Assembly (NCBI GenBank): GCA_021780675.1
Contig: JAJXYH010000034.1
Span: forward strand, 19,889-83,888
Reading direction: 5' to 3'
DNA from: a bacterium
GTDB taxonomy: Bacteria > Patescibacteriota > Microgenomatia > Levybacterales > UBA12049
DNA: 64,000 nucleotides
A program made the translations under genes and the position numbers. The notes under the pieces were generated by a model, which was not told the origin of the DNA, did no database searches, and was given only the letters and a program-made list of their open reading frames with translations. Position 1 is the stretch's first letter. Each line of letters opens with the position of its first letter. Shown here piece by piece: positions 12,620 to 48,074 of this stretch.

Positions 12620-12715
12620 AATTGTATTTGATCTCAAAATCTTAGATCTCAAATAAAGAACACTTATAAAGATAGTTTTGAGATTTAAGATTTTTTTAGT
12701 TTTGAAGCAAAATAT

Positions 12716-13219: not shown

Positions 13220-13221
13220 AT

Positions 13222-13656: not shown

Positions 13657-13658
13657 AT

Positions 13659-14093
13659 ATGGCAAATAATTTTATTTCTAGTAAAGGCAAAAGAAAAGAA
13701 GCGGTTGCCAGGGTAAGACTTTATCGGGATCTTAAAGAAATTCTGATGATGGGGGAAAAGACCGTTAAAAAGGGTGAGATATTTGTAAATGGTGATTTAA
13801 TCGAAAACTATTTTAGAGGTATCGTTTCTAAAGCGCATTATGAAGAACCCTTTAAAATTACCAATACTCAAGGAAAATATACAGTTACTGCTGTTGTTGA
13901 AGGCGGAGGAAACAAAAGTCAGTTAGATGCATTTATTCACGGTGTTTCAAGAGCCTTGGCAAGCATTGATGATAAAAGTAAATCAATCTTAAAGAAAAAA
14001 GGCTTTTTAACAAGAGATTCAAGGATTAGACAGAGAAGAAAAGTCGGAATGGGTGGAAAATCAAGAAGAAAGAAACAAAGTCCGAAGAGGTAA
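13659..14093 (+). CDS. rpsI: 30S ribosomal protein S9
   Basis: GKRKEAVARVRL... and a C-terminal RRKKQSPKR-type tail. Confidence 0.9.
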   Translation: MANNFISSKGKRKEAVARVRLYRDLKEILMMGEKTVKKGEIFVNGDLIENYFRGIVSKAHYEEPFKITNTQGKYTVTAVVEGGGNKSQLDAFIHGVSRALASIDDKSKSILKKKGFLTRDSRIRQRRKVGMGGKSRRKKQSPKR

Positions 14094-14664: not shown

Positions 14665-14734
14665 TGGTTTGCCTTTTAATGCTGAAACTATTATAATGCA
14701 TAGGCTTATAATAATCTACTACCGGTAGATTATT

Positions 14735-15514: not shown

Positions 15515-16206
15515 CACCGGAAATAGAAATTAATCCAGAGGCAAAAGAAACGGTTATATTTACAAGTAAAGAGACGAAAAATATTCAAAGTGCAGGAATT
15601 GCAGTACTAATACTTGGAATAGATCCATATAGAAACGGCGATAATAGTTCTGATCCATTATTATGGACAATTAAAGAGCTGAAAGAGAAGCCAAGCACAA
15701 TGAAAAAGGCGGGGGAGATTTCAATTCCTGCAGAGACAAGAAAAATCGGTGAAATAAGATCAGATAATATTTTAGGTGCATTAGCAGAATTTTGTGATGA
15801 TACGAACCTAAAATATATTAAAAAACATCTTTTTTTAAAACCGGGTTCTTTTGGAGAAAGAGTGATAAATGTAAGTGGTAATTTGGTGGATTTAACAGCA
15901 TTAATTTATGATGGCGATTTAAGCTTGCCTATTACTCCCGTTAACTTTTCCGAGGTTAGTCCAAACGGATGGTTAAAAGTCAGTCAGATAAGAAATTTTA
16001 ATGACATCAGACCCATTTTAAGCCAGGCACTGGAAAAGGATTTGGAAATTGGTTTAAGTAAGGACATATTTGATACATATTTAAATGGAAAAGATGAATT
16101 GGCACCTGTTTTTGAAGATGATTTTAGTTCAATAGCGGATTTTTACAGAAACAGAGAGACGTTATCGGATATTCCTTTATTAAGTAGAACTACTTCAGGT
16201 AATTAA
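15511..16206 (+). CDS. hypothetical protein, translationally coupled to IPK (ATGA overlap)
   Basis: 231-aa ORF with no recognisable family. Its start overlaps the IPK stop by 4 nt. Confidence 0.4.
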   Translation: MTPEIEINPEAKETVIFTSKETKNIQSAGIAVLILGIDPYRNGDNSSDPLLWTIKELKEKPSTMKKAGEISIPAETRKIGEIRSDNILGALAEFCDDTNLKYIKKHLFLKPGSFGERVINVSGNLVDLTALIYDGDLSLPITPVNFSEVSPNGWLKVSQIRNFNDIRPILSQALEKDLEIGLSKDIFDTYLNGKDELAPVFEDDFSSIADFYRNRETLSDIPLLSRTTSGN

Positions 16207-17267
16207 CTTTGCCGTTTTTCCAATTTGTTTACAAGTTCGATTATTTGTTTTTTATATTCGTTTCCGATATTTGTTTTTTCTACAATTTTTTTTGCCTTTT
16301 CTATATTTTCTTTTATAACTTTTTCTCCTGCACAGATTGCCCGGGATTTTATAAAAAGCGCTTTTATTTGTTTTCTTTTTGTGTCATTTAGTTTTTTACC
16401 AAAAACACTTATTAGTTCTTTTTTTTCTTCAGCCTTTCCGTATTCGAAAATATAATTTGTAAAAAATGTTGGTTCACTCTGAGAAACATCTTCTAAAATG
16501 TTTTTATGTAAAAGTTTTGGATCTCCCATAATATCCAGGTAATCATCCTGTATTTGGAAAGTCATGCCAATTATGGTGCCAAAATCCTTTGTAAACTTAT
16601 CAAAACCGTTGTTAAGGCTTGCTAGATATGCTCCCATTTGCATTGGTCTAATAAAACTATAATAAGCGGTTTTAAGTAGGGTTTTTTCATCAATTAATTT
16701 AAGGTCCGGTTCGTTTTGTGTTGTTAGATCTATATCAATCATTTGTCCTAAGATTACTTCGTCAAGTGTTTTATAAAAAATTTCTTTTACCTGTAGAAGA
16801 TTTTCAGAAGGAAAGTCTTTGTTTAAGTCAATTAACTTACAAGTCCAGGCGAAAAGTAGATCTCCAAGCAGGACAGCTTGAGAATCTGCGACGTGAGATA
16901 GGTCACCTTTTCTGCCCAATGTCTTTAATCTGTTATATACAAATTCATGAGCGGTAGTTGTATCATGTCTTAGTTTGGCTTTATCCATAAAATCATCATG
17001 AATAAGTAAAAACATATGAAAAACCTCCAAGCTTACAAAGAATTTAATCGCTTTTTCATCCTTTTCTCCACCGCTAGCTTTATACATGCAATATGCAATA
17101 TATGGTCTTACTCTTTTTCCTGCATGCATTACTAATTCTTTTCCATGCAGAGATAAATCTTTTACTAAGGGGCCGGAATAATTTTGTAAATATTCACCAA
17201 TTCTTTCATCCAGGAATTCTTCAAGCATTGGATCAAAAATATTTTTAAATTCTTTTAATGAGTACAT
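16203..17267 (-). CDS. trans-polyprenyl diphosphate synthase (FPP/GGPP synthase family)
   Basis: Two aspartate-rich motifs: LLIHDDFMD and FQIQDDYLDIMGD. 354 aa. Confidence 0.85.
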   Translation of the reverse strand: MYSLKEFKNIFDPMLEEFLDERIGEYLQNYSGPLVKDLSLHGKELVMHAGKRVRPYIAYCMYKASGGEKDEKAIKFFVSLEVFHMFLLIHDDFMDKAKLRHDTTTAHEFVYNRLKTLGRKGDLSHVADSQAVLLGDLLFAWTCKLIDLNKDFPSENLLQVKEIFYKTLDEVILGQMIDIDLTTQNEPDLKLIDEKTLLKTAYYSFIRPMQMGAYLASLNNGFDKFTKDFGTIIGMTFQIQDDYLDIMGDPKLLHKNILEDVSQSEPTFFTNYIFEYGKAEEKKELISVFGKKLNDTKRKQIKALFIKSRAICAGEKVIKENIEKAKKIVEKTNIGNEYKKQIIELVNKLEKRQS

Positions 17268-29699: not shown

Positions 29700-30148
29700 A
29701 AATGGATAATAACAGTATCTCCTTTTTTAAAATTATATTTTTGCGAAAGCCCCGCATTAATCTCTAAAACGTAATTTGCCGGAGTCTCTGGCGTTACCGT
29801 AACGGGAGTTTCCGTACTAGTTTTGGGATAAGGAAGGTCGGGAAAAATTTCAACAATTTTTCCGTTTTCTATATAAATTATATCAATCAGAAATTTCATA
29901 CCCTTCATCCAGAAAGAATACGTGCCCGCTGTCTGAAAAGGGAAAACCATTCCTTTAAATGTAGGTAATTTATTGTAAATATCCAAACCTAATTGTTTTT
30001 GTTCATTAGTTTTTGCAACATCAACAATAAATTTATGATTATTAATGATTACATAAGAATTGTTGATAAATTTTTGATTTACAATTATGAAAAAAAATGC
30101 AATTATGCAAAAAATTAAAATCAGCAATAATATATTAATTTTTTTCAT
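29696..30148 (-). CDS. DUF192 (COG1430) family protein
   Basis: N-terminal TM helix plus the conserved DUF192 core (GLDIYNKLPTFKGMVFPF...SFWMKGMKFLIDIIYI). Confidence 0.6.
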   Translation of the reverse strand: MKKINILLLILIFCIIAFFFIIVNQKFINNSYVIINNHKFIVDVAKTNEQKQLGLDIYNKLPTFKGMVFPFQTAGTYSFWMKGMKFLIDIIYIENGKIVEIFPDLPYPKTSTETPVTVTPETPANYVLEINAGLSQKYNFKKGDTVIIHL

Positions 30149-30630
30149 TTAAAGTTTTCTGAAATAATTTTTGCAAGTCTGGTTGTAGACTTATTTTCAA
30201 TATTATCTACAAAAACAATTTTTGCATTAACTAACATTGCCTGTCTTTTATTATGAATAGCCTGGGGGTTACCTTTTGTAGTAGTAATGATACTTGGATT
30301 TAGTTTTAGGATTAATTCGTCCCAATCTTTATTGGTATTCATGTCGGGTAAAATAATTATGTAATCGATATACGAAATTGCTTCTAAAACCTTAGCTCTT
30401 TCAAGCTGTGAATTAATCGGCCTATTATTTCCTTTAAGTTTCTTAACGCTAGCATCATTTTCAAGCAAGACAAAAAGATAATTACCTTGTTTTTTAGATT
30501 CTTCTAAAAGCTTAATATGTCCGATGTGAAGTATGTCAAAACAGCCACCGGTTAAAACGATAGTTTTATTTTTTGCTTTTATGTTTTTAGAGATTGTTTG
30601 AGCTTCTTGTGTAGTGATTATCTTATTCAT
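30145..30630 (-). CDS. standalone HldE domain II-like nucleotidyltransferase (heptose-1-phosphate adenylyltransferase-like)
   Basis: TGGCFDILHIGHIKLLEES...NDASVKKLKGNNRPIN...ISYIDYIII closely follows the RfaE/HldE domain II signature (NGCFDxLHxGH ... NSDxSVxxLKGxxRPxN). No kinase domain is attached. Confidence 0.65.
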   Translation of the reverse strand: MNKIITTQEAQTISKNIKAKNKTIVLTGGCFDILHIGHIKLLEESKKQGNYLFVLLENDASVKKLKGNNRPINSQLERAKVLEAISYIDYIIILPDMNTNKDWDELILKLNPSIITTTKGNPQAIHNKRQAMLVNAKIVFVDNIENKSTTRLAKIISENFK

Positions 30631-32072
30631 TATTGGGTTCCTACCAGGTATATAGCCTGCCATGGTTTGTAGTTTGAGACAAATTTATCAGAGATTATTA
30701 TTTTACCATTTTTCTCAACAGTTCTTGTGAAGTATACATCTGCTCCCCATGCCGCAAAATCGGTTTGTTTTACTTCTCCTTTAGGAAGTGTCGGGTCATC
30801 CTGATAAAGCGGTGGGGGTGGTGGTCTTTGGTTTGAAACTACTGGAGTGGTCATAGTTACGATTCTTCCATCCTTAGTTCCATAAAAATAAAATGCCAGT
30901 GATAAATTATTTAAGTCAACTGCGCTTTGTACGAGAATATAACGCCCGGTATCATTTTTAAATTTTAAGTCAACGGTCGGTACGTAGATTGTTGCATCAA
31001 TTCCGGGTGGAGAGTCCTCTTCGTAATAACCAACCCTATAAGCATGAGCATACCTTTCAACGACCGGTAAGCCTGAGTTAAGGATTGCCCTAAAAAAAGT
31101 AGTTGAAACCTGACAAACCCCGCCACCATCTCCCAAAATTGTTTTACCATTTTGGATTATGTATGCCTGTTGATAACCTGTAAATGAGGATACATCGCCC
31201 AATGCTTTATCAAAAGAAAAAACTTCTCCTGGTGCAACGAGTACCCCGTTTAATCTTGAAGCGGCAAGAACAATGTTATGAATTCTACTCGCAATGGAAT
31301 GATAAAAAAGCGAGTGACCTTCTCCTATTAACTCTTTAATTCCCAGACTGTTTGCCTTTTCGGTAGTAATATTAGGGTAAAGTATTGTAACTGGAATTTT
31401 TATATAAATTTTTTGTGGTTTTTGAGTTGAAAAAAGTTTTGGAGCTAATAAATAAATTTCATTAGTTAATTTATCAAAATTTAGCTGCTCGCCGTTATTT
31501 GATGGAGTAAAAGTAGTAACTCTGTTATTTTCAAATTTAAATACAGCGTTTACAGCCTTTTTGTTAATTTGATTAGAAAGTGGTTTTAAATCTTTCGTTA
31601 ATTTGTTTTTATCAACGGTATATGAAGGAGACAATTTAACGCCGGTAAAATAACTTTGTAAAAGCGTACTAAGATCGGTTAAGAAATTTCCCGATCTTCC
31701 AATAAGGTAAGCTTGGTCGGAAAGCAAATTAATGTCGTATCCAAAATTTATTTCTTTTGCAGAAACTGTTGCCACGCCATAATCGCTGGTTAGAGTGAAT
31801 GTAGTGTTTGAGACTCTTAAATTTTGTTGATAAAAATATTGTCTTACCTCATCTTTTGTTTTTCCACCAAAATCCGCATTTCCTACAGATACTCCCAAAA
31901 ATACTTTATTACTGAAATATTTTTCATATGCAAAAAAACCAAAACAGGAAACAAAAACAAAAGTCAGTATGGCTCCTGTTAAAAACCAAAATATAGTTCT
32001 GGAAGCTTTTATTATTTGTTTCTTTTTCTTTTGGCTTATCTTAAATTTTAACCGAAGTTTAGAAAAGTTCAT
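30630..32072 (-). CDS. VanW-domain protein
   Basis: N-terminal TM helix and a C-terminal VanW domain with LGDGGGVCQVSTTFF. Confidence 0.7.
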   Translation of the reverse strand: MNFSKLRLKFKISQKKKKQIIKASRTIFWFLTGAILTFVFVSCFGFFAYEKYFSNKVFLGVSVGNADFGGKTKDEVRQYFYQQNLRVSNTTFTLTSDYGVATVSAKEINFGYDINLLSDQAYLIGRSGNFLTDLSTLLQSYFTGVKLSPSYTVDKNKLTKDLKPLSNQINKKAVNAVFKFENNRVTTFTPSNNGEQLNFDKLTNEIYLLAPKLFSTQKPQKIYIKIPVTILYPNITTEKANSLGIKELIGEGHSLFYHSIASRIHNIVLAASRLNGVLVAPGEVFSFDKALGDVSSFTGYQQAYIIQNGKTILGDGGGVCQVSTTFFRAILNSGLPVVERYAHAYRVGYYEEDSPPGIDATIYVPTVDLKFKNDTGRYILVQSAVDLNNLSLAFYFYGTKDGRIVTMTTPVVSNQRPPPPPLYQDDPTLPKGEVKQTDFAAWGADVYFTRTVEKNGKIIISDKFVSNYKPWQAIYLVGTQ

Positions 32073-32113: not shown

Positions 32114-33598
32114 ATGGAAAATGCAAATACGATATTTCAAAGTACAAATCTAAATAATCCCAACATTCAAGGTAACACTGGATTAAATTCTCAATCTGCA
32201 AATTTTCCTTCAGCACTACCCAATACACCACAACCCTTACAACCTAACGCTCCCAAAGGAAATCTCGTGCAAATTAATCAGCAAGAAACCCAAGAAAAAA
32301 AACCTAAAGGGGGCCGCTTTGGCGGAGTAAAAAAACTATTAAATCTTTTACTTTCTATTTTTATTGTTTTGGGGATTGTTATGATTGTTATGATCTTCTT
32401 AATTCCCAGCCTAAATAAGACCTCTCCTTCTACCCAGACGACAATTACTTATTGGGGTCTTTTTGAAGATAATAATGTAATGCAAGGGATTATTTCTGAA
32501 TTTGAAAAACAAAATCCCAATATAAAAGTTGACTATATTAAGCAAGATATAAGTCAATATAGGGAAAGGCTGCAAACAAGAATCAATAACGGAACAGGAC
32601 CGGATATTTTTAGGTTCCATAACACGTGGTATCCAATGCTTAAAAACGACTTACTTCCGCTACCGGAGCAAACAATTTCTAAAGACATGTTTACCAGTGT
32701 TTTTTATCCGGTTGCTCAAAGAGATTTAATTAAAAATGGTGCAATTTACGGAATACCTCTTCAGATAGATACCTTGGCACTTTTTATAAACACAGGAATT
32801 TTTCAATCCGCCGGACGAACTGCCCCTATCAGTTGGGAAGATTTTCTAAATGATGCAAGGGCGTTAACAGTAAAGGATTCTAATGGAAATATTACAACTG
32901 CAGGTGCAGCAATGGGAACATATGGAAATGTTACCCATGCTCCCGATATCATTTCTTTGCTTTTCTATGAAAATAGCGTAGATTTTAATAATCTTTCAAA
33001 TTCTTCAAGTGAAATTAATGATGCGTTAACATTTTACGAATCATTTGCAAATGGAGCAAATGCGGTTTGGAATAACAATCTAGATCCTTCGCAACTCGCA
33101 TTTGCTAAAGGGAATTTAGCAATGTTTTTTGGTTACTCAACAGACTATTTTGCTATAAAACAGTTTAATCCCAATCTTGCTTTTCAGATTGTTCCTGTTC
33201 CACAACTTTCCGGTAAGAACATAACACTGGCAAGTTACTGGGTTGAGGGGGTTTCTGCAAAAAGCAAACATCAAGCGGAAAGTTTATTATTTATGAAATT
33301 TTTAGCAAAAAAAGAAACAGAACAAAAATTATATGCTGATGAATCAAAAGTTAGGGATTTTGGTGAGCCATATGCAAGAGTTGATATTGCCGATCGCTTG
33401 AAGAATAATCCTATGGTTTATCCTTTTGTTATGCAAGCTCCAAATGCATATTCATCGCCTTTTGTAGACGGAACTTTTGATAATGGTTTAAACCAGCAAT
33501 TGGACACTTATTTACAAAAAACAATTGATGCAGGCAACAATCCTGTAGATGCGTTAATAAATGCAGCGAACCAAACCTATCAGCAGTACGGTTTATAA
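32114..33598 (+). CDS. extracellular solute-binding protein (ABC SBP family 1), orphan
   Basis: N/Q/P-rich N-terminus, TM anchor, then an SBP_bac_1-like domain (ITYWGLFEDNN...GPDIFRFHNTW). No permease or ATPase is adjacent. Confidence 0.6.
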   Translation: MENANTIFQSTNLNNPNIQGNTGLNSQSANFPSALPNTPQPLQPNAPKGNLVQINQQETQEKKPKGGRFGGVKKLLNLLLSIFIVLGIVMIVMIFLIPSLNKTSPSTQTTITYWGLFEDNNVMQGIISEFEKQNPNIKVDYIKQDISQYRERLQTRINNGTGPDIFRFHNTWYPMLKNDLLPLPEQTISKDMFTSVFYPVAQRDLIKNGAIYGIPLQIDTLALFINTGIFQSAGRTAPISWEDFLNDARALTVKDSNGNITTAGAAMGTYGNVTHAPDIISLLFYENSVDFNNLSNSSSEINDALTFYESFANGANAVWNNNLDPSQLAFAKGNLAMFFGYSTDYFAIKQFNPNLAFQIVPVPQLSGKNITLASYWVEGVSAKSKHQAESLLFMKFLAKKETEQKLYADESKVRDFGEPYARVDIADRLKNNPMVYPFVMQAPNAYSSPFVDGTFDNGLNQQLDTYLQKTIDAGNNPVDALINAANQTYQQYGL

Positions 33599-33645: not shown

Positions 33646-33736
33646 TTGACAAACATATATGTTTACTATATCATTCTTAAGGTTAAGAACTTATTTTTAT
33701 TATTCCCTCTAGTTTTACTGTGAGGGATTTTGTTTT
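33646..33736 (+). promoter_or_regulatory. greA promoter plus leader stem-loop with U-tract
   Basis: TTGACA (33646-33651) and a TATCAT-like -10. The 12-bp palindrome AACATATATGTT sits in the spacer. Hairpin TCCCTC-N11-GAGGGA (33704-33727) is followed by TTTTGTTTT and ends 16 nt before the greA ATG. Confidence 0.4.
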
Positions 33737-33751: not shown

Positions 33752-34225
33752 ATGGATGCCAAAAAAATATATTTAACAAAAGAAGGTTTAGTAGAGTTAA
33801 AAAAAGAATTCGAAGAACTTACTAAAGTAAAAAGACCCGATGTTTTAGAAAGAGTTTCTCAAGCAAGAAGCATGGGAGACTTGTCTGAAAATGCGGAATA
33901 TGTTGCTGCAAGAGAAGAGCTATCATTTATTGACGGTAGAATAGAAGAACTTGAGGAACTTATTAAACAGGCGGTATTAATACAAGAATCCCATAGTAAA
34001 AGCGGATCGGGTGTTGTTAAGCTTGGATCAACTGTTACAGTAAGCATTAAAGGCAAAAAGGAAATATTTACAGTCGTTGGCGAATGGGAGGCAGACCCCC
34101 ATGATAAGAAAATTTCCCATGAATCCCCGCTTGGTAAAGCTTTAATTGGTAAAAAAGTGGGAGAAAAAGTAGAAGTTGAAGCACCGGCAGGAATAGTAGT
34201 TTATACTATTGCATCTGTAAATTAA
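33752..34225 (+). CDS. greA: transcription elongation factor GreA
   Basis: Coiled-coil N-terminus (LTKEGLVELKKEFEEL...DLSENAEY) and a C-terminal FKBP-like domain; 157 aa. Confidence 0.9.
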   Translation: MDAKKIYLTKEGLVELKKEFEELTKVKRPDVLERVSQARSMGDLSENAEYVAAREELSFIDGRIEELEELIKQAVLIQESHSKSGSGVVKLGSTVTVSIKGKKEIFTVVGEWEADPHDKKISHESPLGKALIGKKVGEKVEVEAPAGIVVYTIASVN

Positions 34226-34244: not shown

Positions 34245-35231
34245 ATGGCAGAATTTAATTATGTTGTCTGCGGCGGAACTTTTGATTTATTTCATAAAGG
34301 CCACGAGGAATTAATAAATAAAGCATTATCAATATCAAAAAAAATATTAATTGGTATTACCAGTGATACTTATATAGAATCGTTTAAAAAAGAACACCAA
34401 ATAGAAGATTTTAGTAAACGAAAAAAATCGGTAAAAGCATATCTTAAAAAAATACATGTAGATAAAAAAGTTATATTGGTTCCAATAAATTCAGCATACG
34501 AACCTTATTTAGAAACTTCAAAAAAATATGATGCAATAGTTGTATCGAATCAAACTAAAAAAACAGCGATCCTTATTAATAAAAAAAGAAAACAAAATAA
34601 TTTAATTCCTTTAACAATTATTATTGTTCCGGATGTTTCTGCAGATGATAAAAAAATAATTTCTTCAACCAGAATAAGACATGGAGAGATAAATAGAAAA
34701 GGGAAACTATTTATAGACAGTAAATGGAAGAATAATAACCTTGTTTTGCCGATTAATTTGCGGAAAAAATTACAAGTTCCGTGGGGAAAGGTATTAGAGA
34801 CAGTTCCCAAAAAGCTTGACGGGAAAAAAGCTGTGGTTGTAGGAGACTATACAGCGTTAGAGTTTAATAAAAATAATTTACGTCAATTTTTATCTGTTAT
34901 AGATTTTTTAATAAACCGTGAGAAAAAATTTAATAATTTATTACAATTAGGTTTTAAAGATAAAAAATTTGTAAGAGTAAGAAGTGATCCCGGAATCATT
35001 TCTAAAAATTTATTTAAAGAGATTGAAAATGCATTCAAAAACCCAACAAAAAGAAAAATTATTGTAGTTGATGGTGAAGAGGATTTGGCAGTTCTTCCTG
35101 TAATTTTATTGGCGCCGCTTGAGTTTAGTATTTTTTATGGTCAACCTAAAAAAGGGATGGTAGAAGTATTGGTAACAGAAGAAGTTAAAGAAAAAGCATA
35201 TAAACTTTTAGATAAGTTTATTATTGCGTAA
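34245..35231 (+). CDS. archaeal/eukaryotic-type phosphopantetheine adenylyltransferase fused to a C-terminal DUF359-like domain (putative GTP-dependent dephospho-CoA kinase)
   Basis: N-terminus VVCGGTFDLFHKGHEEL...IGITSD is the COG1019 PPAT signature. The C-terminal roughly 170 aa carry VVGDYT, VDGEEDLAVLPVILLAP and YGQPKKGMV motifs. Confidence 0.5.
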   Translation: MAEFNYVVCGGTFDLFHKGHEELINKALSISKKILIGITSDTYIESFKKEHQIEDFSKRKKSVKAYLKKIHVDKKVILVPINSAYEPYLETSKKYDAIVVSNQTKKTAILINKKRKQNNLIPLTIIIVPDVSADDKKIISSTRIRHGEINRKGKLFIDSKWKNNNLVLPINLRKKLQVPWGKVLETVPKKLDGKKAVVVGDYTALEFNKNNLRQFLSVIDFLINREKKFNNLLQLGFKDKKFVRVRSDPGIISKNLFKEIENAFKNPTKRKIIVVDGEEDLAVLPVILLAPLEFSIFYGQPKKGMVEVLVTEEVKEKAYKLLDKFIIA

Positions 35232-35297
35232 GATAAATTTTTTGTTATAATAATTTAAGATGAAAATTATAAATTTTATAAGAAATGCAAAGAAGAA

Positions 35298-35317
35298 CCT
35301 CGTAATGAGGGGTTTTG
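35298..35317 (+). terminator. intrinsic terminator-like hairpin
   Basis: CCTC-GTAAT-GAGG followed by GGTTTTG, downstream of the PPAT fusion gene. Confidence 0.35.
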
Positions 35318-35375: not shown

Positions 35376-35468
35376 GATGCTAAAAAAAGCAGCATTTCTG
35401 ATGATGAATCCAAGATTTTACAAAGCTTATTTAGAAAAAGCTAGTAAATCTGGGAGGAGGTGAAAAAT

Positions 35469-35804
35469 ATGGAAAGAGATGGTTTTGTACCATTAGATGA
35501 AAGTTATTCTGGTATGCCCCAAAATTTAGATTTTGTAAATGGGAATGGGCAAAGAGTTAGTGTGGTGTTTGGAATGGAACATGATCTTCCAGCAACAAGA
35601 TTTTCTATATTAGACCAGGAAGATAGAGTTATAAGTAAAGGTGGTAGTTTTGCAATAAACTTTGGCCACGCTTTAACTACAGGTTTAGGTCTGGAAACAG
35701 GATCAAGGGCAATTAGGTTTTTGCGAGAAAATAAATTGGCAGACTTAGGTCCTTTAGCTACAGCAGTATTTTCCGGAGTTGATAATTCTGGAGGAAGAGT
35801 TTAA
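35469..35804 (+). CDS. hypothetical protein (111 aa)
   Basis: A strong SD (GGAGGAGGTGA) precedes the ATG at 35469. No recognisable domain. Confidence 0.4.
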   Translation: MERDGFVPLDESYSGMPQNLDFVNGNGQRVSVVFGMEHDLPATRFSILDQEDRVISKGGSFAINFGHALTTGLGLETGSRAIRFLRENKLADLGPLATAVFSGVDNSGGRV

Positions 35805-35840: not shown

Positions 35841-37367
35841 ATGATGGTTAATATGTATTGGGCAGATAAAATTGCTGAAGAAATAATTAAATCGGGAGAG
35901 TATAAACCCTATTGGGTAGATGATATGTTTACTCCTTCGGGCTATCCTCATGTTGGATCTCTTAGAGGGCCACTAGTGCATGATGTGGTATATAAGGCTT
36001 TAAAAAATAAAGGAGCGAAAGTTAAATGGACTTATATAATGAATGATTTTGACCCGATTGATGGGTTGCCCCCTGATTTAATGGATAAGCTTTTTTCTTA
36101 CATGGGTGTTCCGGTTAGACTTGCTCCTTCTCCCGTTGAAGGATTTGCCAGTTTTGGAGAGTATTTTTCTAAAGATATCCAAAGTGTATTAAAAAATTTA
36201 GGGGTAGAGGCACAGTATCTTTCTTCGTGGGATATGTACAAGGAAGGAAAATTCAATGATGTTATTAAAGAAGCACTAGATAATGCTGACAAAATTCAGG
36301 ATATTTATGAAGAGGTTTCAGGTAGTAAAAAAAGAGAAAAAGGTTGGCTTCCGCTTCAGGTTATATGTGAAAAATGCGGAAAATTAGGAACTACAAGAGT
36401 TCATGACTGGAATGGTAAAACTGTAAAATATACTTGCGAACCGGAAATGGTTAAATGGGCAAAAGGATGCGGGTATAAAGGTGAAATCAGCCCATTTGAT
36501 GGGAATGGAAAGTTACCTTGGAAAGTTGACTGGCCTGCACACTGGAAAGTAATCGGGGTAACAATAGAAGGGGCAGGTAAAGACCATTCCTCGGCAGGTG
36601 GATCAAGAGATATTGCTAAGGCACTTTGTAAAGAAGTGTTTAGATATCCAAATCCGTTTAATATTCCCTACGAGTTTATTTTAATAGGTGGTAAAAAAAT
36701 GGCATCTTCAAAAGGATTAGGTTTAAAAGCCCGTGACCTTTCCCAAATTTTACCATTAGATATCGGCAGGTTTTTATTCATTAGAACCGAGTTTAGAAAA
36801 CAAGTTGAGTTTGATCCTACTGATCCAATGGCAATTCCGGTTATTTTTGATGAATATCAAAAGGCTGCGGATGCTTATTTTGATAAAACCAATGAAGAAC
36901 TTGCTAGAGTTTTTGAACTTTCTCAAGTTAGCGATAAAATTATAAAGCCGCCTTCTGTTAGATTTTCTGTGCTTACGCAGTGGGTACAAATGCCGAATAT
37001 GGAAGAAGAAATTATAAAAAATGGTTTAGAAAGTTGGGCAAAATACGCAAGAGTATGGCTTGAGAAATTTGCACCTGAAAAAGACAAATTTGAAGTTCAA
37101 AAAGAACTTCCAAAAGAAGCAAAAGATCTTTCCAAACTGCAAAAAGAACTTCTTAATAACATCTCACAAGAACTTAATAAGAAATGGGATGCGGAAGAGT
37201 TCCAAACCAAAATTTACGATTTGGGAAAAGAATTAGGTTTAGGTGGAAAAGATACTTTCGCTGCGATTTACCTATCATTACTTGGCAAAGACCATGGTCC
37301 AAAAGCAGCCTGGCTTATCTTATCGCTCGACAGGGATTTTGTTAAAGAAAGATTTAGCGTCCTTTAG
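35841..37367 (+). CDS. lysK: lysyl-tRNA synthetase, class I (archaeal type)
   Basis: Class I signature PSGYPHVGS in place of HIGH, with KMASSKG as the KMSKS motif. The length of about 508 aa is typical of LysRS-I. Confidence 0.8.
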   Translation: MMVNMYWADKIAEEIIKSGEYKPYWVDDMFTPSGYPHVGSLRGPLVHDVVYKALKNKGAKVKWTYIMNDFDPIDGLPPDLMDKLFSYMGVPVRLAPSPVEGFASFGEYFSKDIQSVLKNLGVEAQYLSSWDMYKEGKFNDVIKEALDNADKIQDIYEEVSGSKKREKGWLPLQVICEKCGKLGTTRVHDWNGKTVKYTCEPEMVKWAKGCGYKGEISPFDGNGKLPWKVDWPAHWKVIGVTIEGAGKDHSSAGGSRDIAKALCKEVFRYPNPFNIPYEFILIGGKKMASSKGLGLKARDLSQILPLDIGRFLFIRTEFRKQVEFDPTDPMAIPVIFDEYQKAADAYFDKTNEELARVFELSQVSDKIIKPPSVRFSVLTQWVQMPNMEEEIIKNGLESWAKYARVWLEKFAPEKDKFEVQKELPKEAKDLSKLQKELLNNISQELNKKWDAEEFQTKIYDLGKELGLGGKDTFAAIYLSLLGKDHGPKAAWLILSLDRDFVKERFSVL

Positions 37368-37806
37368 GCTTTACTCTTCCTCTTGATTGCGGTTTTCCCC
37401 TTAACTGACCTCTTCGCAGAGAGGTTCTTGCACTTTCCGATCTTCTTGCGACTGTATAGCCTCCGCTCCCAAATGTAGCTTGTTGAGTATTCGGTGTGCC
37501 ATTCATACCATTGTCCACAGGGTCGCCGGTAAAAATAGCTTCAGGTTCATTAGGGATATCTTGACCAAAGTGAGTATCCCCTTCGTGAATATGTTCAATT
37601 TCTGTAACGAATACATGATCAGGTGTCGTATCAATTTCCTCTACGAGAGCTACTACATGCATACCGCTAGCTTCTAATTTATTAAGTTCTGCAATAGCTC
37701 TTATGCGTATTGTAGAATCTGGAGTTCCGGCCAAAGTTTCTAGGTCTACATCTCCAGGTAAATGCTCTTTGTCTACAGGATCAATAGTTTCTCTTTCTGT
37801 GCTCAT
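37354..37806 (-). CDS. hypothetical acidic protein with Arg-rich tail; locally GC-enriched; converges on and overlaps the lysK 3' end by 14 nt
   Basis: 150-aa ORF on the minus strand. The local GC is visibly above the window background. Weak SD. Confidence 0.3.
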   Translation of the reverse strand: MSTERETIDPVDKEHLPGDVDLETLAGTPDSTIRIRAIAELNKLEASGMHVVALVEEIDTTPDHVFVTEIEHIHEGDTHFGQDIPNEPEAIFTGDPVDNGMNGTPNTQQATFGSGGYTVARRSESARTSLRRGQLRGKPQSRGRVKPKGR

Positions 37807-43013: not shown

Positions 43014-43033
43014 ATATTCGATATATCGAATAT
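43014..43033 (+). promoter_or_regulatory. perfect 20-bp palindromic operator overlapping the ArsR-family gene start
   Basis: ATATTCGATATATCGAATAT ends inside the ATG at 43032. An upstream TTGACG with an extended -10 TGaTATATT gives a promoter. Confidence 0.55.
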
Positions 43034-43526
43034 GTATTACGAAGTATTTCAGTTACATGCTAAGCTTTTAAAAGCTTTATCAAATCCCAAAAGGCTCGAA
43101 ATTATTCAACTAATTAGAGAAGAGGAACTACCAGTTGCAGAAATTCAAGAAATGCTTGATTTACCCCAAGGAAATTTAAGCCAACATTTACAAGTGCTCA
43201 GAGCTGCAGGCATTGTTAAGACAAGACGGGAAGGAAAACAAATTTATTACAGTATTTCCCATAAAAACTTTATTAAAGCAAGCGATTTATTTAGAGAGGT
43301 ATTGATAGAAAGAAATAAAGACGCTGTTTCAGATATAGCTTTTAAAAAAATGGCCGATCTTGTTCCTTTAACTTCAGATCCGGTATGCGGGATGAGAGTA
43401 AGCCCTAAAACTTCGGCGTTTGCTTACAAAAACACTGGGGATGAATTTTATTTCTGCGGTTCAGGATGTTACGAAAGATTCAAGAAATACCCTAAAAAAT
43501 ACATCAGAGCAGTAGCATTCGCTTAA
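43032..43526 (+). CDS. ArsR/SmtB-family transcriptional regulator with C-terminal YHS metal-binding domain
   Basis: ArsR wHTH (LSNPKRLEIIQLI...LSQHLQVLRAAGIV) plus a YHS/TRASH-like DPVCGMRV...YFCGSGCYERF tail. Confidence 0.7.
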   Translation: MYYEVFQLHAKLLKALSNPKRLEIIQLIREEELPVAEIQEMLDLPQGNLSQHLQVLRAAGIVKTRREGKQIYYSISHKNFIKASDLFREVLIERNKDAVSDIAFKKMADLVPLTSDPVCGMRVSPKTSAFAYKNTGDEFYFCGSGCYERFKKYPKKYIRAVAFA

Positions 43527-43530
43527 TTTT

Positions 43531-43884
43531 ATGGACAAAATTATTGTTAGTATTGTTGGCGTAGTTTTTATCGGTTTTATTTACTGGTTTTTCTTAGGAA
43601 AAAGAGAGAAAGGAGTAAAAGCCGAACGTTCCATTGATGTTCTGGTTAAAGGTGGTTATACCCCATCAAAAATTATTATTCCTCAAAATAAAACTACGAC
43701 CATCAATTTTACAAGAGAAGACTCCAATAGCTGTCTTGAAGAAGTTGTCTTGTCTGATTTTAAAATAAGAAAATATCTTCCCATCAATAAAACGGTCAGT
43801 ATACAAATAAATCCATCAAAGAAAGGAGATTTTAATTTTTCCTGTGGAATGGGAATGTTTCACGGAAATTTAATTGTCGAATAA
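43531..43884 (+). CDS. membrane-anchored cupredoxin-like domain protein (paralog of the 46082 gene C-terminus)
   Basis: N-terminal TM helix. The C-terminus YTPSKIIIP...SNSC...[16 protein letters not shown] aligns with the C-terminal domain of the 344-aa protein. Confidence 0.5.
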
Positions 43885-46085
43885 TGGATAATAAAAAAAC
43901 ATATGCGGTAAAAGGAATGCATTGTGCTTCATGCGTAAGGGTTTTAGAAAAAGCAATTGGGAAAGTTGATGGTGTTAAAGAAGTTAGTGTAAATTTAGCA
44001 ACTGAAAAAGCAGCTGTATCTTTTTCGAAGAAAGTAGAAGATCAGGAAATAAAAAATGCCGTACAAAAAGTAGGGTATGGATTAGAAGAAGTAAATGAAG
44101 ACGCCGAAAAAGTTGAAAAACAAAAACAATTAAGTGATTTAAGAAATAAACTTACACTCAGCTTAGTTTTGGGTTTTTTGATCTTTTATGGAAGTTTTCC
44201 AGGTTTAATGAAATTTTCACCTGTGTTACTTCAAAACTTTTTAGTTCAACTTCTCTTATCATTGCCCGTTCAATTTTGGGCAGGACTAAGCTTTTATAAA
44301 GCCGCAATTCCAGCTTTTAAGAATAGGACTGCCAACATGGACACTCTGGTTGCGGTCGGAACATCGGTTGCTTTTTCTTATTCGGTTTTTGTAACTCTTT
44401 TTCCCCAGATTCCAAAATCGATTGGAATAGAGCCAATGCCCTATTTTGACGTTTCAACAATTATTATTGGTTTAATTCTTTTAGGCAGATATTTTGAGGC
44501 AAGAGCTAAAAGCAATACCTCAGAAGCAATTAAAAAGTTAATGGGACTATCTCCCAAAACAGCTAGAGTGATTAGAAATGGAGAAGAATTGGATTTGCCA
44601 ATTAGTGAAGTTATTGTGGGTGATGAAATAAGAGTTAGGCCTGGGGAAAAGATTCCGGTTGACGGAACTATTTTAGAGGGCGAATCTTCAATTGATGAAG
44701 CAATGATTACAGGCGAAAGTATTCCTGTAGATAAACTTAAAGGCGATGTCGTAATTGGTGCGACCATGAATAAGTCAGGAAGCTTTACTTATAAAGCTAC
44801 AAAAGTAGGAAGTGAAACTATGCTCTCACAAATTATAAAACTTGTTCAGGAGGCTCAGGGAAGCAAGGCCCCAATCCAAAGAATTGCCGATTTAATTTCT
44901 TCGTATTTTGTTCCGGTTGTCATAATGCTATCGGTATTAACTTTTGTAATCTGGTATGATTTCGGACCTGTACCGTCATTTTTATTTGCTCTCTTAAACA
45001 TGGTTGCAGTTTTAATTATTGCTTGTCCTTGTGCCATGGGACTTGCAACACCAACGGCCATCATGGTCGGAACGGGTAAGGGAGCGGAAAACGGTATTTT
45101 AATTAAAGATGCGCAGAGTTTAGAATTGGCTCATAAAATAAATGCGATTGTTTTTGATAAAACCGGAACTTTAACAAATGGAAAACCGGAAGTAACTGAT
45201 ATATTAGGAGAAGATAAAAATAAGATTTTAATGTTGGCAGCATCCTTAGAAAAAGGCTCAGAACATTCTCTTGCTACTGCGATTATTCAAAAAGCGGAAA
45301 AAGATAAAGTTAAACTTATTAAAGTTGAAAAATTTCAATCAGTCGTAGGGCATGGTATTCAGGGTGTAATAGCAGGAGAAAAAGTAGTCCTAGGTAATAA
45401 ACGCTTTATGAAAAAAGAAAACATTGATATTTCTAGTTTGGAAAAAGATATAGACCAATTAGAAGAAAGCGGCAAAACAGTAATGATTTTGGCTGTTGAT
45501 GGAAAAGAAGTGGGAGCTATTTCTGTTGCCGATACCCTTAAGGATAGCGCTAAAGAAGGAGTTTCACTTTTGAAGAAGATTGGCATTGAAGTTTTTATGA
45601 TAACCGGTGATAACGAGAAAACAGCAAACGCAATTGCGAAATCGATAGGAATACAAAACGTTTTAGCAGAAGTTTTGCCAAGTCAAAAAGAAGAAGAGGT
45701 CCGAAAAATACAGGCAAAAGGAAAAATTGTTGCAATGGTTGGAGACGGAATAAACGATGCTCCTGCTTTGGCAGCAGCCGACATAGGAATTGCCATGGGA
45801 ACGGGAACAGATGTAGCGATTGAGGCAGCGGATATAACTTTACTAAATAAAGACTTAAAATCAGTTTCGCAATCAATTAATCTCTCGAAAAAAACAATGA
45901 GAACAATAAGACTTAATTTATTTTGGGCATTTGGTTATAACATCGTGTTGATACCTGTTGCGATGGGTTTACTTTATCCGTTTTTTCATCTGTTCCTAAA
46001 TCCTATCTTTGCGTCTCTGGCAATGGCCTTAAGTTCAATATCGGTAGTAACTAATTCACTTACCCTAAAAAGAGTCGCAATATGA
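43884..46085 (+). CDS. copA: copper-translocating P1B-type ATPase
   Basis: N-terminal HMA (GMHCASCV), CPC in TM6, [15 protein letters not shown]; 733 aa. Confidence 0.9.
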
Positions 46086-47116
46086 ATATAACCAGCTTAA
46101 TTTCAATATTTTTAACAGGACTGTTAACAGGCGGTCTTAGCTGCATGGCCGTTCAAGGAGGACTTCTGGCGGCAACATTGGCTCAAAGGGAGGAAGAAAG
46201 ACTGAAGAGCAATTTAAAAAGTGGCGGTAATGCTATACCAATTATCTCGTTTTTAGTTGCAAAATTGGTTGCTTATACGATTCTAGGATTTTTGTTGGGT
46301 TCATTAGGTTCTGTATTCCAATTGTCGTTATCTTTAAAAGTTATTATGCAAATCGCAGTAAGTATTTTTATGCTTGGGACTGCTTTTAATATTTTAGATG
46401 TTCATCCTATTTTTCGATATTTTGTAATCCAACCCCCTAAATTTCTAACAAGACTTGTTAGAAAACAATCCAAGAGTCAGGATGTTTTTGCTCCGGCTAT
46501 CTTAGGATCCCTTACCATTTTTATCCCTTGCGGTATTACGCAGGGAATGATGGCTTTAGCCATAGGGTCAGGTAGTCCTTTATCGGGGGCATTGATACTT
46601 TTTGCATTTATTCTTGGTACATCACCCATATTTTTTGTGTTGGGATACTTTGCAACAAAGCTCGGAGATATATTCCAGCAAAGATTTATGAAAATTGTAG
46701 CTTTTGCAATCATTTTCCTGGCAATATTTAACATCAATAATGCAATTACCTTAAGTGGAGTTAAGCTTCCATTTGGTGATATAGCTAAAAATGTTTGGTG
46801 CACATTTACTATATGCGACAATGTTACTTCGGGAACTAATGTTGCAATAAACAATAGTCCTACGATTACTATTGGAGCTGTAAGTTATACCCCAAATATT
46901 ATAAGTGTAAAAGCAGGAGCACGGGTAAAATTGAAGCTTGTGAACACAGAGGGAACAAGTTGTATTCAGGCCTTTACAATACCTAGCTTAGGATTGCAAA
47001 AAATAGTTCGTCCCGGAACATCTGATGAATTAGATTTTATAGCCCCAAGTACACCTGGACAAATTCCATTCATGTGTAGTATGGGAATGTTTAAGGGGGT
47101 GATTAACGTACTATGA
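46082..47116 (+). CDS. CcdA/DsbD_2-like polytopic membrane protein fused to a C-terminal cupredoxin-like domain
   Basis: TM Cys motifs LSCMAV and [16 protein letters not shown] resemble CcdA TM1/TM4. The C-terminal domain YTPNIISV...GTSC...[14 protein letters not shown] is paralogous to the 43531 protein. Confidence 0.5.
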
Positions 47117-47331
47117 TAAAGAAAGTTTTTAAAATAAAAGGAATGCATTGCACTAGTTGTGCAATAAATATAGACGGAGAGTTAGAGGATACAGATGGAG
47201 TAAAACAAGCTAATACTAATTATGCAAAGGTTATTACTGAGGTTGAATTTGACCCAAAAAAAATAAATGAAGAGCAAATTGTGAAGTTAATTAAAAAGGT
47301 TGGTTATGATGCTGCTCTAGTAACAAATTAA
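47113..47331 (+). CDS. copZ: copper chaperone CopZ (HMA domain)
   Basis: 72 aa with GMHCTSCA and a ferredoxin-like fold. Confidence 0.85.
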   Translation: MIKKVFKIKGMHCTSCAINIDGELEDTDGVKQANTNYAKVITEVEFDPKKINEEQIVKLIKKVGYDAALVTN

Positions 47332-47600: not shown

Positions 47601-48074
47601 ATGAATGATCTACTCATAAGAAGCTATAAATCTTCCGATAATCAGGAAATAAAAGACCTCTACAAACTGGCCTCAGTAGAATCCGAAATTGGTTTTCGGG
47701 ACGGTCCGTGGTATAAAGATTTTGATATTATGGAAAATTTTTATATGGATAAGGGAGATTTTTTAGTGGGAGTAATGGGTAATAAAATTGTAGCAATGAT
47801 AGGACTAGAGAAATCATTAAAAACGGTAGGGCACATTAGGAGGATGAGGGTGCATCCAGAATATAGGAGAAGAGGGTATGCCCAAGCGCTTCTTAAGGAA
47901 TTGGAGGAGAGGGCGGTTAAAAAAGGATTTACAGAGCTTCGTCTTCGTACATCAATCCAGCAGATAATGGCACAGAGGCTTTATGAAAAAAACGGATATT
48001 CAAAAATGAAGTCAAAAAAAGAGTTTTATTTGGAAGGTCCTTTTGAGGTGATTTGGTATAGGAAATTGCTATGA
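47601..48074 (+). CDS. GNAT family N-acetyltransferase
   Basis: RRMRVHPEYRRRGYAQALL acetyl-CoA-binding motif; 157 aa. Confidence 0.75.
   Translation: MNDLLIRSYKSSDNQEIKDLYKLASVESEIGFRDGPWYKDFDIMENFYMDKGDFLVGVMGNKIVAMIGLEKSLKTVGHIRRMRVHPEYRRRGYAQALLKELEERAVKKGFTELRLRTSIQQIMAQRLYEKNGYSKMKSKKEFYLEGPFEVIWYRKLL

What the first reader, a model, noticed from the sequence alone, without database searches (positions are those of the whole stretch)
34245..35231. Putative single-polypeptide archaeal-type PPAT plus DUF359-like fusion for the last two steps of CoA synthesis
The N-terminal roughly 150 aa carry the archaeal/eukaryotic PPAT signature (GGTFDLFHKGH, IGITSD). The C-terminal roughly 170 aa carry VVGDYT, VDGEEDLAVLPVILLAP and YGQPKKGMV. 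These resemble what I recall of DUF359, the family shown in archaea to be the GTP-dependent dephospho-CoA kinase, but I cannot verify that resemblance here. A bacterial genome encoding the archaeal enzymes for both terminal CoA steps as one fused protein would be noteworthy.
Basis: inference. Interest (0 to 1): 0.6.

Follow-up and report, generated by a model that had tools for sequence, protein, structure and literature searches.

The report
Archaeal-type fused CoA synthase in CPR bacterium
A tiny-genome (CPR/Microgenomates) bacterium encodes, as one 328-residue protein, the archaeal versions of the last two coenzyme A enzymes. The fusion is real and common across this bacterial group, it was already described in archaea, and annotation pipelines name only its first half.

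Summary
ORF 34245-35231 (+) is intact and 328 aa long. Residues 3-156 match archaeal/eukaryotic-type phosphopantetheine adenylyltransferase (PPAT; NCBIfam NF001985, 153 bits, cutoff 104). Residues about 168-325 match DUF359 (PF04019, 99 bits, cutoff 25), the family of the Thermococcus GTP-dependent dephospho-CoA kinase (DPCK) TK1697.

The three Asp residues tested by mutagenesis in TK1697 align to D201, D220 and D280. These, and the PPAT HxGH motif, are essentially invariant in 390 homologues. The AlphaFold model (pLDDT 93) matches PDB 8jvc and 3do8.

The window is clearly bacterial (Levybacteria-like). The gene lies in a conserved housekeeping block and was assembled identically from several samples.

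This fusion is not new as a kind. In marine archaea it was the clue that led to the discovery of archaeal DPCK (Shimosaka 2019). In public data it is a large family spread across Microgenomates.

Its presence in bacteria is not mentioned in any paper I could search. NCBI names these proteins only as PPAT.

I could not test absence of canonical coaD/coaE genome-wide, the source of 4'-phosphopantetheine, or GTP use.

Verdict: new member of a known kind, moderate interest.

The parts
34245..35231 (+). Whole gene: 328-aa bifunctional PPAT / DUF359-type dephospho-CoA kinase (end coordinate includes the stop codon)
   Evidence: ORF list. Pfam and NCBIfam hits. Identical protein on contigs from several samples. 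AF2 model with pLDDT 93.3 and pTM 0.88.
34251..34712 (+). N-terminal domain, residues 3-156: archaeal/eukaryotic-type phosphopantetheine adenylyltransferase
   Evidence: NF001985 scores 153.4 bits against a cutoff of 104. PDB 3do8: E 4.8e-18 by sequence and TMt 0.79-0.86 by fold. Bacterial CoaD model TIGR01510 scores only 22.9 bits against a cutoff of 103.
34293..34304 (+). HxGH nucleotidyltransferase motif (H17-K-G-H20)
   Evidence: Read from the translation. H17, G19 and H20 are present in 386 of 386 ungapped homologues.
34659..34679 (+). ISSTRIR motif (residues 139-145), the second nucleotide-binding motif of this transferase superfamily
   Evidence: Read from the translation. It aligns to ISSTRIK of 3do8. 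R145 is conserved in 378 of 390 homologues. Its role in nucleotide binding is from general knowledge of the superfamily.
34746..35219 (+). C-terminal domain, residues 168-325: DUF359/arCOG04076-type dephospho-CoA kinase
   Evidence: PF04019 scores 99 bits against a cutoff of 25. NF041125 aligns to residues 168-325, covering model positions 5-169 of 176. PDB 8jvc: E 9.6e-14 by sequence; Foldseek E 1.4e-13 and TMt 0.78-0.80.
34845..34847 (+). D201 codon, equivalent to TK1697 Asp48
   Evidence: Position derived from the alignment. TK1697 D48A mutagenesis is reported in PMC6650551. Conserved in 390 of 390 homologues.
34902..34904 (+). D220 codon, equivalent to TK1697 Asp67
   Evidence: alignment. 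Conserved in 389 of 389 ungapped homologues.
35082..35084 (+). D280 codon in the GEEDL motif, equivalent to TK1697 Asp125
   Evidence: alignment. Conserved in 389 of 389 ungapped homologues.
33752..34225 (+). greA, 19 nt upstream on the same strand; probably co-transcribed with the fusion gene
   Evidence: Pfam GreA_GreB_N and GreA_GreB. greA lies next to the fusion in all Levybacteria loci, on either side of it. Co-transcription is inferred.
33646..33674 (+). Promoter-like site upstream of greA (TTGACA, 17 nt spacer, TATCAT; 11 of 12 matches)
   Evidence: Consensus scan only. This is weak evidence.
35294..35316 (+). Terminator-like hairpin 63 nt after the stop codon
   Evidence: Consensus scan only. 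This is weak evidence.

Best explanation
The gene encodes a bifunctional 'CoA synthase' built from the two archaeal-type enzymes.

- **Step 1 (N-terminal domain).** The Rossmann-like nucleotidyltransferase domain adenylylates 4'-phosphopantetheine with ATP to give dephospho-CoA. This is the PPAT reaction.
- **Step 2 (C-terminal domain).** The DUF359 domain is a thiamine-pyrophosphokinase-like kinase, not a P-loop kinase. It phosphorylates the 3'-OH of dephospho-CoA to give CoA, most likely with GTP as donor as in T. kodakarensis TK1697.

The two domains abut with almost no linker and are predicted as one rigid body. The product of step 1 is therefore made next to the enzyme for step 2.

The gene is a vertically inherited housekeeping gene of Microgenomates (CPR) bacteria and ultimately of archaeal origin. 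In such reduced genomes it probably completes CoA from salvaged or separately made 4'-phosphopantetheine.

What is shown: domain identity, intact active-site residues, fold, distribution and synteny. What is inferred: both enzymatic activities, GTP use, the source of the substrate, and the displacement of bacterial CoaD/CoaE.
For: - **Domain models.** Both domains score above curated cutoffs.
- **Relation to solved or tested proteins.** Sequence and fold match the DPCK 8jvc/8jvg and the A. fulgidus PPAT homologue 3do8.
- **Catalytic residues.** D48, D67 and D125 of TK1697, whose Ala mutants impair growth (PMC6650551), align to D201, D220 and D280.
- **Conservation.** These three Asp residues and the HxGH motif are invariant in 386-390 of 390 homologues that are only 32-62% identical overall. 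Both halves are therefore under purifying selection.
- **Model quality.** The AF2 model has pLDDT 93.3 and pTM 0.88 with no disordered linker.
- **Published precedent.** The same PPAT-arCOG04076 fusion in uncultured archaea was the published rationale for assigning DPCK function to this family.
- **Stable genomic position.** Synteny is conserved across Levybacteria: TsaD, DUF192, a nucleotidyltransferase and VanW on one strand, then SBP, GreA, the fusion, class I LysRS, Ham1, SerRS and SecA.
- **Likely CoA users in the window.** These are a GNAT acetyltransferase and genes downstream of mevalonate (isopentenyl phosphate kinase, polyprenyl synthase).
- **No competing genes nearby.** No bacterial-type CoaD or CoaE lies in the window, its extension or the CPR flanks.
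Against: - No enzymatic data exist for any bacterial member of the family.
- The Thermococcales-specific equivalog models are not reached: NF041125 scores 68 bits against 300, and NF041124 scores 80 against 290. Orthology to the characterised enzymes therefore rests on family-level models plus conserved residues.
- GTP specificity cannot be read from the sequence with the information available here.
- The rest of the genome could not be examined. A canonical coaD or coaE may coexist, and the origin of 4'-phosphopantetheine is unknown.
- The gene's GC content (0.275) is about 1.9 sd below the window's ORF mean. This is mild and does not decide anything.
Confidence: 0.8

Rival explanations
1. 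The N-terminal half is PPAT, but the DUF359 half in bacteria has drifted to another role. It might be a kinase for a different nucleotide or cofactor, or a regulatory or ligand-binding module, and a conventional P-loop CoaE elsewhere in the genome makes CoA.
For: - The score against the only experimentally anchored equivalog model is low: NF041125 gives 68 bits against a cutoff of 300.
- Identity to TK1697 is only 28-29%.
- The rest of the genome was not readable, so a CoaE cannot be excluded.
Against: - All three catalytic Asp residues and the GEEDL and YGQP motifs are invariant across 390 homologues.
- The match covers the full length of the DPCK fold.
- Permanent fusion to the enzyme of the preceding pathway step across hundreds of lineages is the same argument that correctly predicted DPCK function in archaea.
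Confidence: 0.1
2. The N-terminal nucleotidyltransferase is not PPAT but a paralogous archaeal-type adenylyltransferase, for example an NMN or FMN adenylyltransferase. The protein would then serve another cofactor pathway.
For: The PF01467 superfamily is functionally diverse. Weak hits to NMNAT, FAD synthetase and glycerol-3-phosphate cytidylyltransferase models are present.
Against: - NF001985 (PPAT) scores 153 bits, above its cutoff of 104. NMNAT models score 18 bits or less.
- In the triple-domain relatives, a separate domain that matches archaeal NMNAT sits in front of the PPAT-like domain. The two are therefore distinct paralogues.
- The best PDB sequence match is deposited as a PPAT.
Confidence: 0.05
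3. The feature is an artefact: an archaeal contig mis-binned as bacterial, or two adjacent genes joined by a sequencing or assembly error.
For: Both domains are archaeal in type. The source is a metagenome-assembled genome.
Against: - The same 64-kb contig carries a bacterial ribosomal-protein operon, GreA, SecA, RecA/RecX, RNase Y and type IV pilus genes.
- The identical protein was assembled from four or more samples.
- The architecture and length are conserved in hundreds of homologues.
- Levybacteria loci share the surrounding synteny.
Confidence: 0.01

Closest known systems
PPAT-arCOG04076 (DUF359) fusion proteins of uncultured marine group II/III archaea (e.g. AIF21550.1; Shimosaka, Makarova, Koonin & Atomi 2019, PMC6650551)
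   Same: The two Pfam domains occur in the same order (PF01467 then PF04019), and the length is about 330-347 aa. Poseidoniales loci L019, L022, L028 and others show this. The inferred function is the same: the last two steps of CoA synthesis.
   Different: The host is a CPR bacterium, not an archaeon. Identity to the Poseidoniales proteins is only about 27-31%. The Poseidoniales proteins form their own clade (bootstrap 0.98 for both domains) that excludes all CPR sequences. Whether the two groups share one fusion event is unresolved.
TK1697, GTP-dependent dephospho-CoA kinase of Thermococcus kodakarensis (PDB 8jvc, 8jvf, 8jvg)
   Same: The C-terminal domain has the same fold (TMt 0.78-0.80, Foldseek E 1e-13). 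It has the same catalytic Asp residues and the same GEEDL and YGQP motifs.
   Different: TK1697 is a stand-alone 177-aa protein. Identity is 28-29%. The window protein does not reach the Thermococcales equivalog cutoff. Its NTP preference is untested.
Archaeal PPAT (COG1019-type; P. abyssi and T. kodakarensis TK2128; A. fulgidus homologue PDB 3do8)
   Same: The N-terminal domain passes NF001985. It has the HxGH and ISSTRIR motifs and matches the fold of 3do8.
   Different: Here the domain is fused to the next enzyme of the pathway and is encoded in a bacterium.
Eukaryotic CoA synthase (COASY): PPAT fused to DPCK
   Same: It works the same way: one polypeptide with PPAT at the N-terminus and DPCK at the C-terminus catalyses the last two steps. 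The PPAT is of the archaeal/eukaryotic type.
   Different: The COASY kinase domain is a P-loop CoaE homologue. The kinase here is the unrelated DUF359 fold. There is no P-loop motif and no CoaE family hit. This is an analogous fusion, not a homologous one.
Bacterial CoaD plus CoaE
   Same: They catalyse the same two reactions.
   Different: TIGR01510 (CoaD) scores 22.9 bits against a cutoff of 103.3. There is no CoaE domain. The bacterial enzymes are separate genes, and the bacterial kinase uses ATP.

Membership tests
Archaeal/eukaryotic-type PPAT (NCBIfam NF001985; PF01467 superfamily) | Scores above the curated cutoff of the family HMM | tested here: met
   NF001985 scores 153.4 bits against a cutoff of 104, over residues 3-156. 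PF01467 scores 47.4 bits against 21.
Archaeal/eukaryotic-type PPAT (NCBIfam NF001985; PF01467 superfamily) | (H/T)xGH and ISxxR nucleotide-binding motifs | tested here: met
   H17-K-G-H20 and ISSTRIR at residues 139-145. H17 and H20 are present in 386 of 386 homologues.
Archaeal/eukaryotic-type PPAT (NCBIfam NF001985; PF01467 superfamily) | Nucleotidyltransferase Rossmann-like fold matching a solved archaeal homologue | tested here: met
   Foldseek against 3do8: TMt 0.79-0.86, E 1e-8 to 2e-7.
Archaeal/eukaryotic-type PPAT (NCBIfam NF001985; PF01467 superfamily) | Adenylylation of 4'-phosphopantetheine | not testable with these tools
   This needs an enzyme assay.
DUF359 / arCOG04076 GTP-dependent dephospho-CoA kinase | Scores above the Pfam PF04019 gathering cutoff | tested here: met
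   99 bits against a cutoff of 25, E 1.9e-28.
DUF359 / arCOG04076 GTP-dependent dephospho-CoA kinase | Reaches the NCBIfam equivalog NF041125 (Thermococcales DPCK) cutoff | tested here: not met
   67.7 bits against a cutoff of 300. The model is lineage-specific, so this excludes close orthology to the Thermococcales enzymes but not family membership.
DUF359 / arCOG04076 GTP-dependent dephospho-CoA kinase | Three conserved catalytic Asp residues (TK1697 D48, D67, D125) | tested here: met
   D201, D220 and D280 align to them. They are invariant in 389-390 of 390 homologues.
DUF359 / arCOG04076 GTP-dependent dephospho-CoA kinase | Fold of the solved DPCK | tested here: met
   8jvc and 8jvg: Foldseek E 1.4e-13, TMt 0.78-0.80, about 175 aligned columns.
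DUF359 / arCOG04076 GTP-dependent dephospho-CoA kinase | Phosphorylates dephospho-CoA and prefers GTP | not testable with these tools
   This needs an enzyme assay. The paper describing the 8jvc structure was not in the searchable library, so residues that read the guanine base could not be checked.
PPAT-DUF359 fusion (archaeal bifunctional CoA synthase) | Both domains in one ORF, with PPAT N-terminal | tested here: met
   Poseidoniales examples have the same order.
PPAT-DUF359 fusion (archaeal bifunctional CoA synthase) | Common descent with the archaeal fused genes (a single fusion event) | tested here: inconclusive
   Neighbour-joining trees with bootstrap were used. The Poseidoniales fused clade has 0.98 support in both domain trees and excludes all CPR sequences. 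CPR N-terminal domains are interspersed with stand-alone archaeal PPATs, with low support.
Eukaryotic COASY / bacterial CoaE (P-loop DPCK) | Walker A P-loop kinase domain (PF01121) | tested here: not met
   No CoaE family hit. No GxxxxGK[ST] motif in this ORF.
Bacterial CoaD (TIGR01510) | Scores above the equivalog cutoff | tested here: not met
   22.9 bits against a cutoff of 103.3.

The most novel reading that the evidence does not exclude
The whole Microgenomates radiation (Levy-, Roizman-, Woese-, Gottesman- and Pacebacteria) may have replaced bacterial CoaD and CoaE with an archaeal-derived, GTP-dependent, fused CoA synthase. That would be a cross-domain non-orthologous displacement of two essential genes. 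These ultra-small bacteria would then finish CoA themselves from salvaged 4'-phosphopantetheine. Because pipelines name the protein only 'PPAT', published metabolic reconstructions would wrongly score the last CoA step as missing in this group.
Probability: 0.4. Interest if true: 0.5.

Novelty: new member of a known kind. Interest (0 to 1): 0.36.

Why it matters
CoA is essential, and CPR bacteria are usually described as unable to make most cofactors.

- **Cofactor autonomy.** If the fusion is active, a whole class of CPR bacteria can carry out the last two CoA steps with enzymes so far described as archaeal.
- **Gene exchange between domains.** It adds a clear case to the list of archaeal-type genes in CPR. 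This window also holds a class I LysRS and an isopentenyl phosphate kinase.
- **A concrete annotation gap.** Pfam still labels the kinase domain 'DUF359'. NCBI names these proteins only as PPAT. The DPCK step is therefore silently missed in metabolic reconstructions.
- **A practical reagent.** The family offers mesophilic, single-polypeptide enzymes for testing GTP versus ATP use and substrate hand-over between the two active sites.

It does not reveal a new kind of enzyme or a new mechanism.

Tried and rejected
- **Genome-wide check for coaD/coaE.** This was not possible. Only the window and a 10-kb extension of the same organism could be read. That extension is on NCBI assembly GCA_027353285.1. 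None found a CoA-pathway gene. This is weak negative evidence only.
- **The second cytidylyltransferase-like ORF (30145-30663, - strand).** I considered it as a possible bacterial CoaD and rejected that. Its best match is rfaE domain II-like (113 bits, below the 181 cutoff) and it has no CoaD match.
- **Fusion in Proteobacteria.** Record titles 'Vitreimonas sp.', 'Gammaproteobacteria' and 'Pseudomonadales' suggested this. I rejected it as probable mislabelling. The closest homologues of those proteins are named Patescibacteria, Pacebacteria, Woesebacteria and Gottesmanbacteria, and locus GC is 0.34-0.48.
- **Donor lineage and number of fusion events.** Neighbour-joining trees did not resolve either.
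- **AlphaFold-database fold search.** The library was unavailable.
- **Literature.** Ten searches found no paper that mentions DUF359, arCOG04076 or archaeal DPCK in bacteria. The library covers open-access papers only.

Full report
**1. The observation**

The ORF finder lists one ORF at 34245..35231 on the + strand, with an ATG start and 328 aa.

- Pfam gives PF04019 (DUF359) at E 1.9e-28, 99 bits against a cutoff of 25, over residues 206-325.
- Pfam also gives PF01467 (cytidylyltransferase-like) at E 2.9e-12 over residues 8-146.
- NCBIfam refines the N-terminal half. NF001985 'pantetheine-phosphate adenylyltransferase', the archaeal-type model, scores 153.4 bits against a cutoff of 104 over residues 3-156.
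- The bacterial CoaD model TIGR01510 scores only 22.9 bits against a cutoff of 103.
- The Thermococcales DPCK model NF041125 aligns residues 168-325 to model positions 5-169 of 176. Its score of 68 bits is far below that lineage-specific cutoff of 300.

Against PDB sequences the two best matches are 3do8 (deposited as a PPAT, E 4.8e-18, residues 7-154) and 8jvc (GTP-dependent dephospho-CoA kinase, E 9.6e-14, residues 188-323).

**2. It is a real, intact gene of a bacterium**

The identical 328-aa protein is called on contigs from at least four independent samples, so the junction is not an assembly artefact.

The window is plainly bacterial. It holds:
- a bacterial ribosomal-protein operon with SecY, Adk, Map, IF-1 and RpoA (1-14,000);
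- RecA, RecX and RNase Y;
- GreA immediately upstream of the fusion gene;
- SecA and type IV pilus genes.

The named relatives among the top hits are 'Candidatus Levyibacteriota/Levybacteria' or 'Patescibacteria group'. GreA is 85-88% and SecA 77% identical to a Levyibacteriota MAG. An NCBI copy of the region is in assembly GCA_027353285.1.

The gene's GC content (0.275) is about 1.9 sd below the mean of the window's ORFs (0.338). This is mild and not diagnostic of recent transfer.

greA and the fusion gene are 19 nt apart. A promoter-like site lies before greA and a terminator-like hairpin lies 63 nt after the fusion gene. This suggests a two-gene transcript, on consensus-scan evidence only.

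**3. Active sites and fold**

Shimosaka et al. (PMC6650551) showed that TK1697 is a GTP-dependent DPCK. They also showed that Ala replacement of Asp48 and Asp67 (strongly) and Asp125 (partly) impairs growth.

Counting along the HMMER alignment, these residues correspond to D201, D220 and D280 of the window protein. D280 lies in the GEEDL motif.

I aligned all 390 homologues fetched.
- 385 are 300-360 aa long.
- D201 is present in 390 of 390, D220 in 389 of 389 ungapped, and D280 in 389 of 389 ungapped.
- The PPAT HxGH residues H17, G19 and H20 are present in 386 of 386 ungapped.
- Overall identity to the query falls to 32%.

Both catalytic centres are therefore under strong purifying selection.

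An AlphaFold2 model built on a 44-sequence alignment has mean pLDDT 93.3 and pTM 0.88, with no low-confidence linker. The PPAT domain ends near residue 156 and the DPCK match starts near 168, so the two domains abut.

Foldseek against the PDB returns the T. kodakarensis DPCK structures first (8jvc and 8jvg, E about 1e-13, TMt 0.78-0.80). The A. fulgidus PPAT homologue 3do8 follows (TMt 0.79-0.86), then bacterial PPATs at lower similarity (TMt about 0.6).

**4. How it most likely works**

- **Step 1 (inferred from family membership and motifs).** The N-terminal domain transfers AMP from ATP to 4'-phosphopantetheine to give dephospho-CoA.
- **Step 2 (inferred from homology to TK1697 and the conserved Asp triad).** The C-terminal domain phosphorylates the 3'-hydroxyl of dephospho-CoA to give CoA.

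The kinase is not a P-loop enzyme. No Walker A motif and no CoaE family hit are present. GTP as donor is the default expectation from TK1697 but is untested.

The tight fusion places the two consecutive active sites on one rigid polypeptide. Channelling between them is possible but is speculation.

The window contains likely CoA users: a GNAT acetyltransferase (47601-48074) and genes downstream of the mevalonate route (archaeal-type isopentenyl phosphate kinase, polyprenyl synthase). The source of 4'-phosphopantetheine (CoaBC and PanK elsewhere in the genome, or salvage) is unknown.

**5. Distribution and context**

An exhaustive search of a library clustered at 50% identity finds 4194 representatives at E <= 1e-3 and 650 at E <= 1e-30. 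Nearly all of the best 150 span both domains at about 320-350 aa.

A scan of GTDB species representatives finds full-length fused genes in two groups:
- Levyibacteriota, Roizmanbacteria, 'Microgenomates group' and 'Patescibacteria group' MAGs and one single-cell genome;
- Poseidoniales/Thalassarchaeaceae (marine group II) archaea.

Other archaea in that scan matched with the PPAT half only. Their DUF359 genes were not looked for.

Six loci are titled Gammaproteobacteria, Pseudomonadales or Vitreimonas. The closest homologues of two of them (L025 and L011) are named Patescibacteria, Pacebacteria, Woesebacteria and Gottesmanbacteria. I regard those record titles as mislabels. The bacterial distribution is therefore the Microgenomates part of the CPR.

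Within Levybacteria the surrounding gene order is conserved. TsaD, DUF192, an rfaE-domain-II-like nucleotidyltransferase and VanW lie on one strand. Then come a solute-binding protein, GreA (on either side of the fusion), the fusion, class I LysRS, Ham1, SerRS and SecA. The gene is thus a stable core gene, not a recent island.

Neighbour-joining trees with bootstrap show a robust Poseidoniales fused clade (0.98 for each domain) that excludes all CPR sequences. CPR PPAT domains are interspersed, with weak support, among stand-alone archaeal PPATs. One fusion event versus several, and the donor lineage, remain open.

**6. Comparison with what is known**

The PPAT-arCOG04076 fusion in uncultured marine archaea is published. 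It was the clue that led to the identification of archaeal DPCK.

That paper and the companion review treat the family as archaeal. Its PSI-BLAST searches were reported to retrieve only arCOG04076 members. Only one paper in the searchable open-access library contains the word DUF359. None links DUF359, arCOG04076 or archaeal DPCK to CPR or Patescibacteria.

In the databases the proteins are present, and the protein collection searched here lists both Pfam domains for them. NCBI names them only 'pantetheine-phosphate adenylyltransferase'. JGI occasionally writes 'UPF0218 family/phosphopantetheine adenylyltransferase'.

Functionally the protein parallels eukaryotic CoA synthase (COASY), which also has PPAT followed by DPCK. 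The kinase halves are unrelated folds, so this is an analogous fusion.

**7. What could not be done**

No coaD, coaE or other CoA gene lies in the 64-kb window, its 10-kb extension or the +-10 kb flanks of 17 CPR loci. This is weak evidence, because those flanks are largely syntenic with each other and the probes were crude.

Even a P-loop CoaE homologue would not by itself refute the function. T. kodakarensis has two such homologues, and both lack DPCK activity.

**8. Verdict**

It is a new (bacterial, CPR) member of a known kind, not a new kind.

Its value lies in three things: the cross-domain distribution, a probable displacement of CoaD and CoaE in a whole CPR class (untested), and a concrete annotation gap. 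Interest is moderate, at about 0.36.

Noticed in passing
L012:9974-11458 (Roizmanbacteria MAG) and protein P0221: Some relatives are triple fusions of about 490 aa. They have an N-terminal archaeal-type NMN adenylyltransferase-like domain (NF002243, 117-125 bits, just under the 127 cutoff), then PPAT, then DUF359/DPCK. One polypeptide may therefore finish both NAD and CoA. L036 has the two nucleotidyltransferase domains in one ORF and DUF359 in the next ORF.
   Followed up: partly
L025, L011, L013, L021, L036, L079 (GTDB species-representative records): Records titled 'Vitreimonas sp.' (a 1.4-Mb contig, locus GC 0.44), 'uncultured Gammaproteobacteria' and 'uncultured Pseudomonadales' carry the fusion. 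The closest homologues of the L025 and L011 proteins are named Patescibacteria, Pacebacteria, Woesebacteria and Gottesmanbacteria, so these taxonomic labels look wrong.
   Followed up: partly
window 35841-37367 (+): Class I (archaeal-type) lysyl-tRNA synthetase lies just downstream of the fusion gene (PF01921, 310 bits). It is conserved at this position in Levybacteria loci.
   Followed up: partly
window 14122-17267: An isoprenoid gene cluster. It has an archaeal-type isopentenyl phosphate kinase (14735-15514, NF040647 at 187 bits against a cutoff of 120), a weak IDI-like Nudix ORF (14122-14664, - strand), an unassigned 231-aa ORF (15511-16206) and a polyprenyl synthase (16203-17267, - strand).
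   Followed up: partly
window 30145-30663 (-): A second small cytidylyltransferase-like protein (172 aa, motif GCFDILHIGH). Its best match is rfaE domain II, below the cutoff (113 bits against 181). It is conserved in the Levybacteria synteny block, and its substrate is unknown. It is not a CoaD.
   Followed up: partly
window 32114-33598 (+): A stand-alone extracellular solute-binding protein (SBP_bac_1) with a long low-complexity N-terminus and no adjacent permease genes. It always lies just upstream of the GreA and fusion pair in Levybacteria. In L008 its stop codon overlaps the start of the fusion gene. Any link to precursor uptake is pure speculation.
   Followed up: no
window 43032-47331 (+): A copper or metal handling cluster. 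It has an ArsR-type regulator with a YHS domain, a cupredoxin-like protein, a P-type ATPase with an HMA domain, a DsbD-like membrane protein fused to a cupredoxin domain, and a small ORF whose N-terminus resembles an HMA domain (that ORF was not scanned).
   Followed up: no
window 35460-35804 (+) and 37354-37806 (-): Two ORFs flanking the LysRS gene (114 and 150 aa) have no Pfam or NCBIfam match. Neither has a homologue in the other Levybacteria loci. They are called as genes in the public assembly.
   Followed up: no
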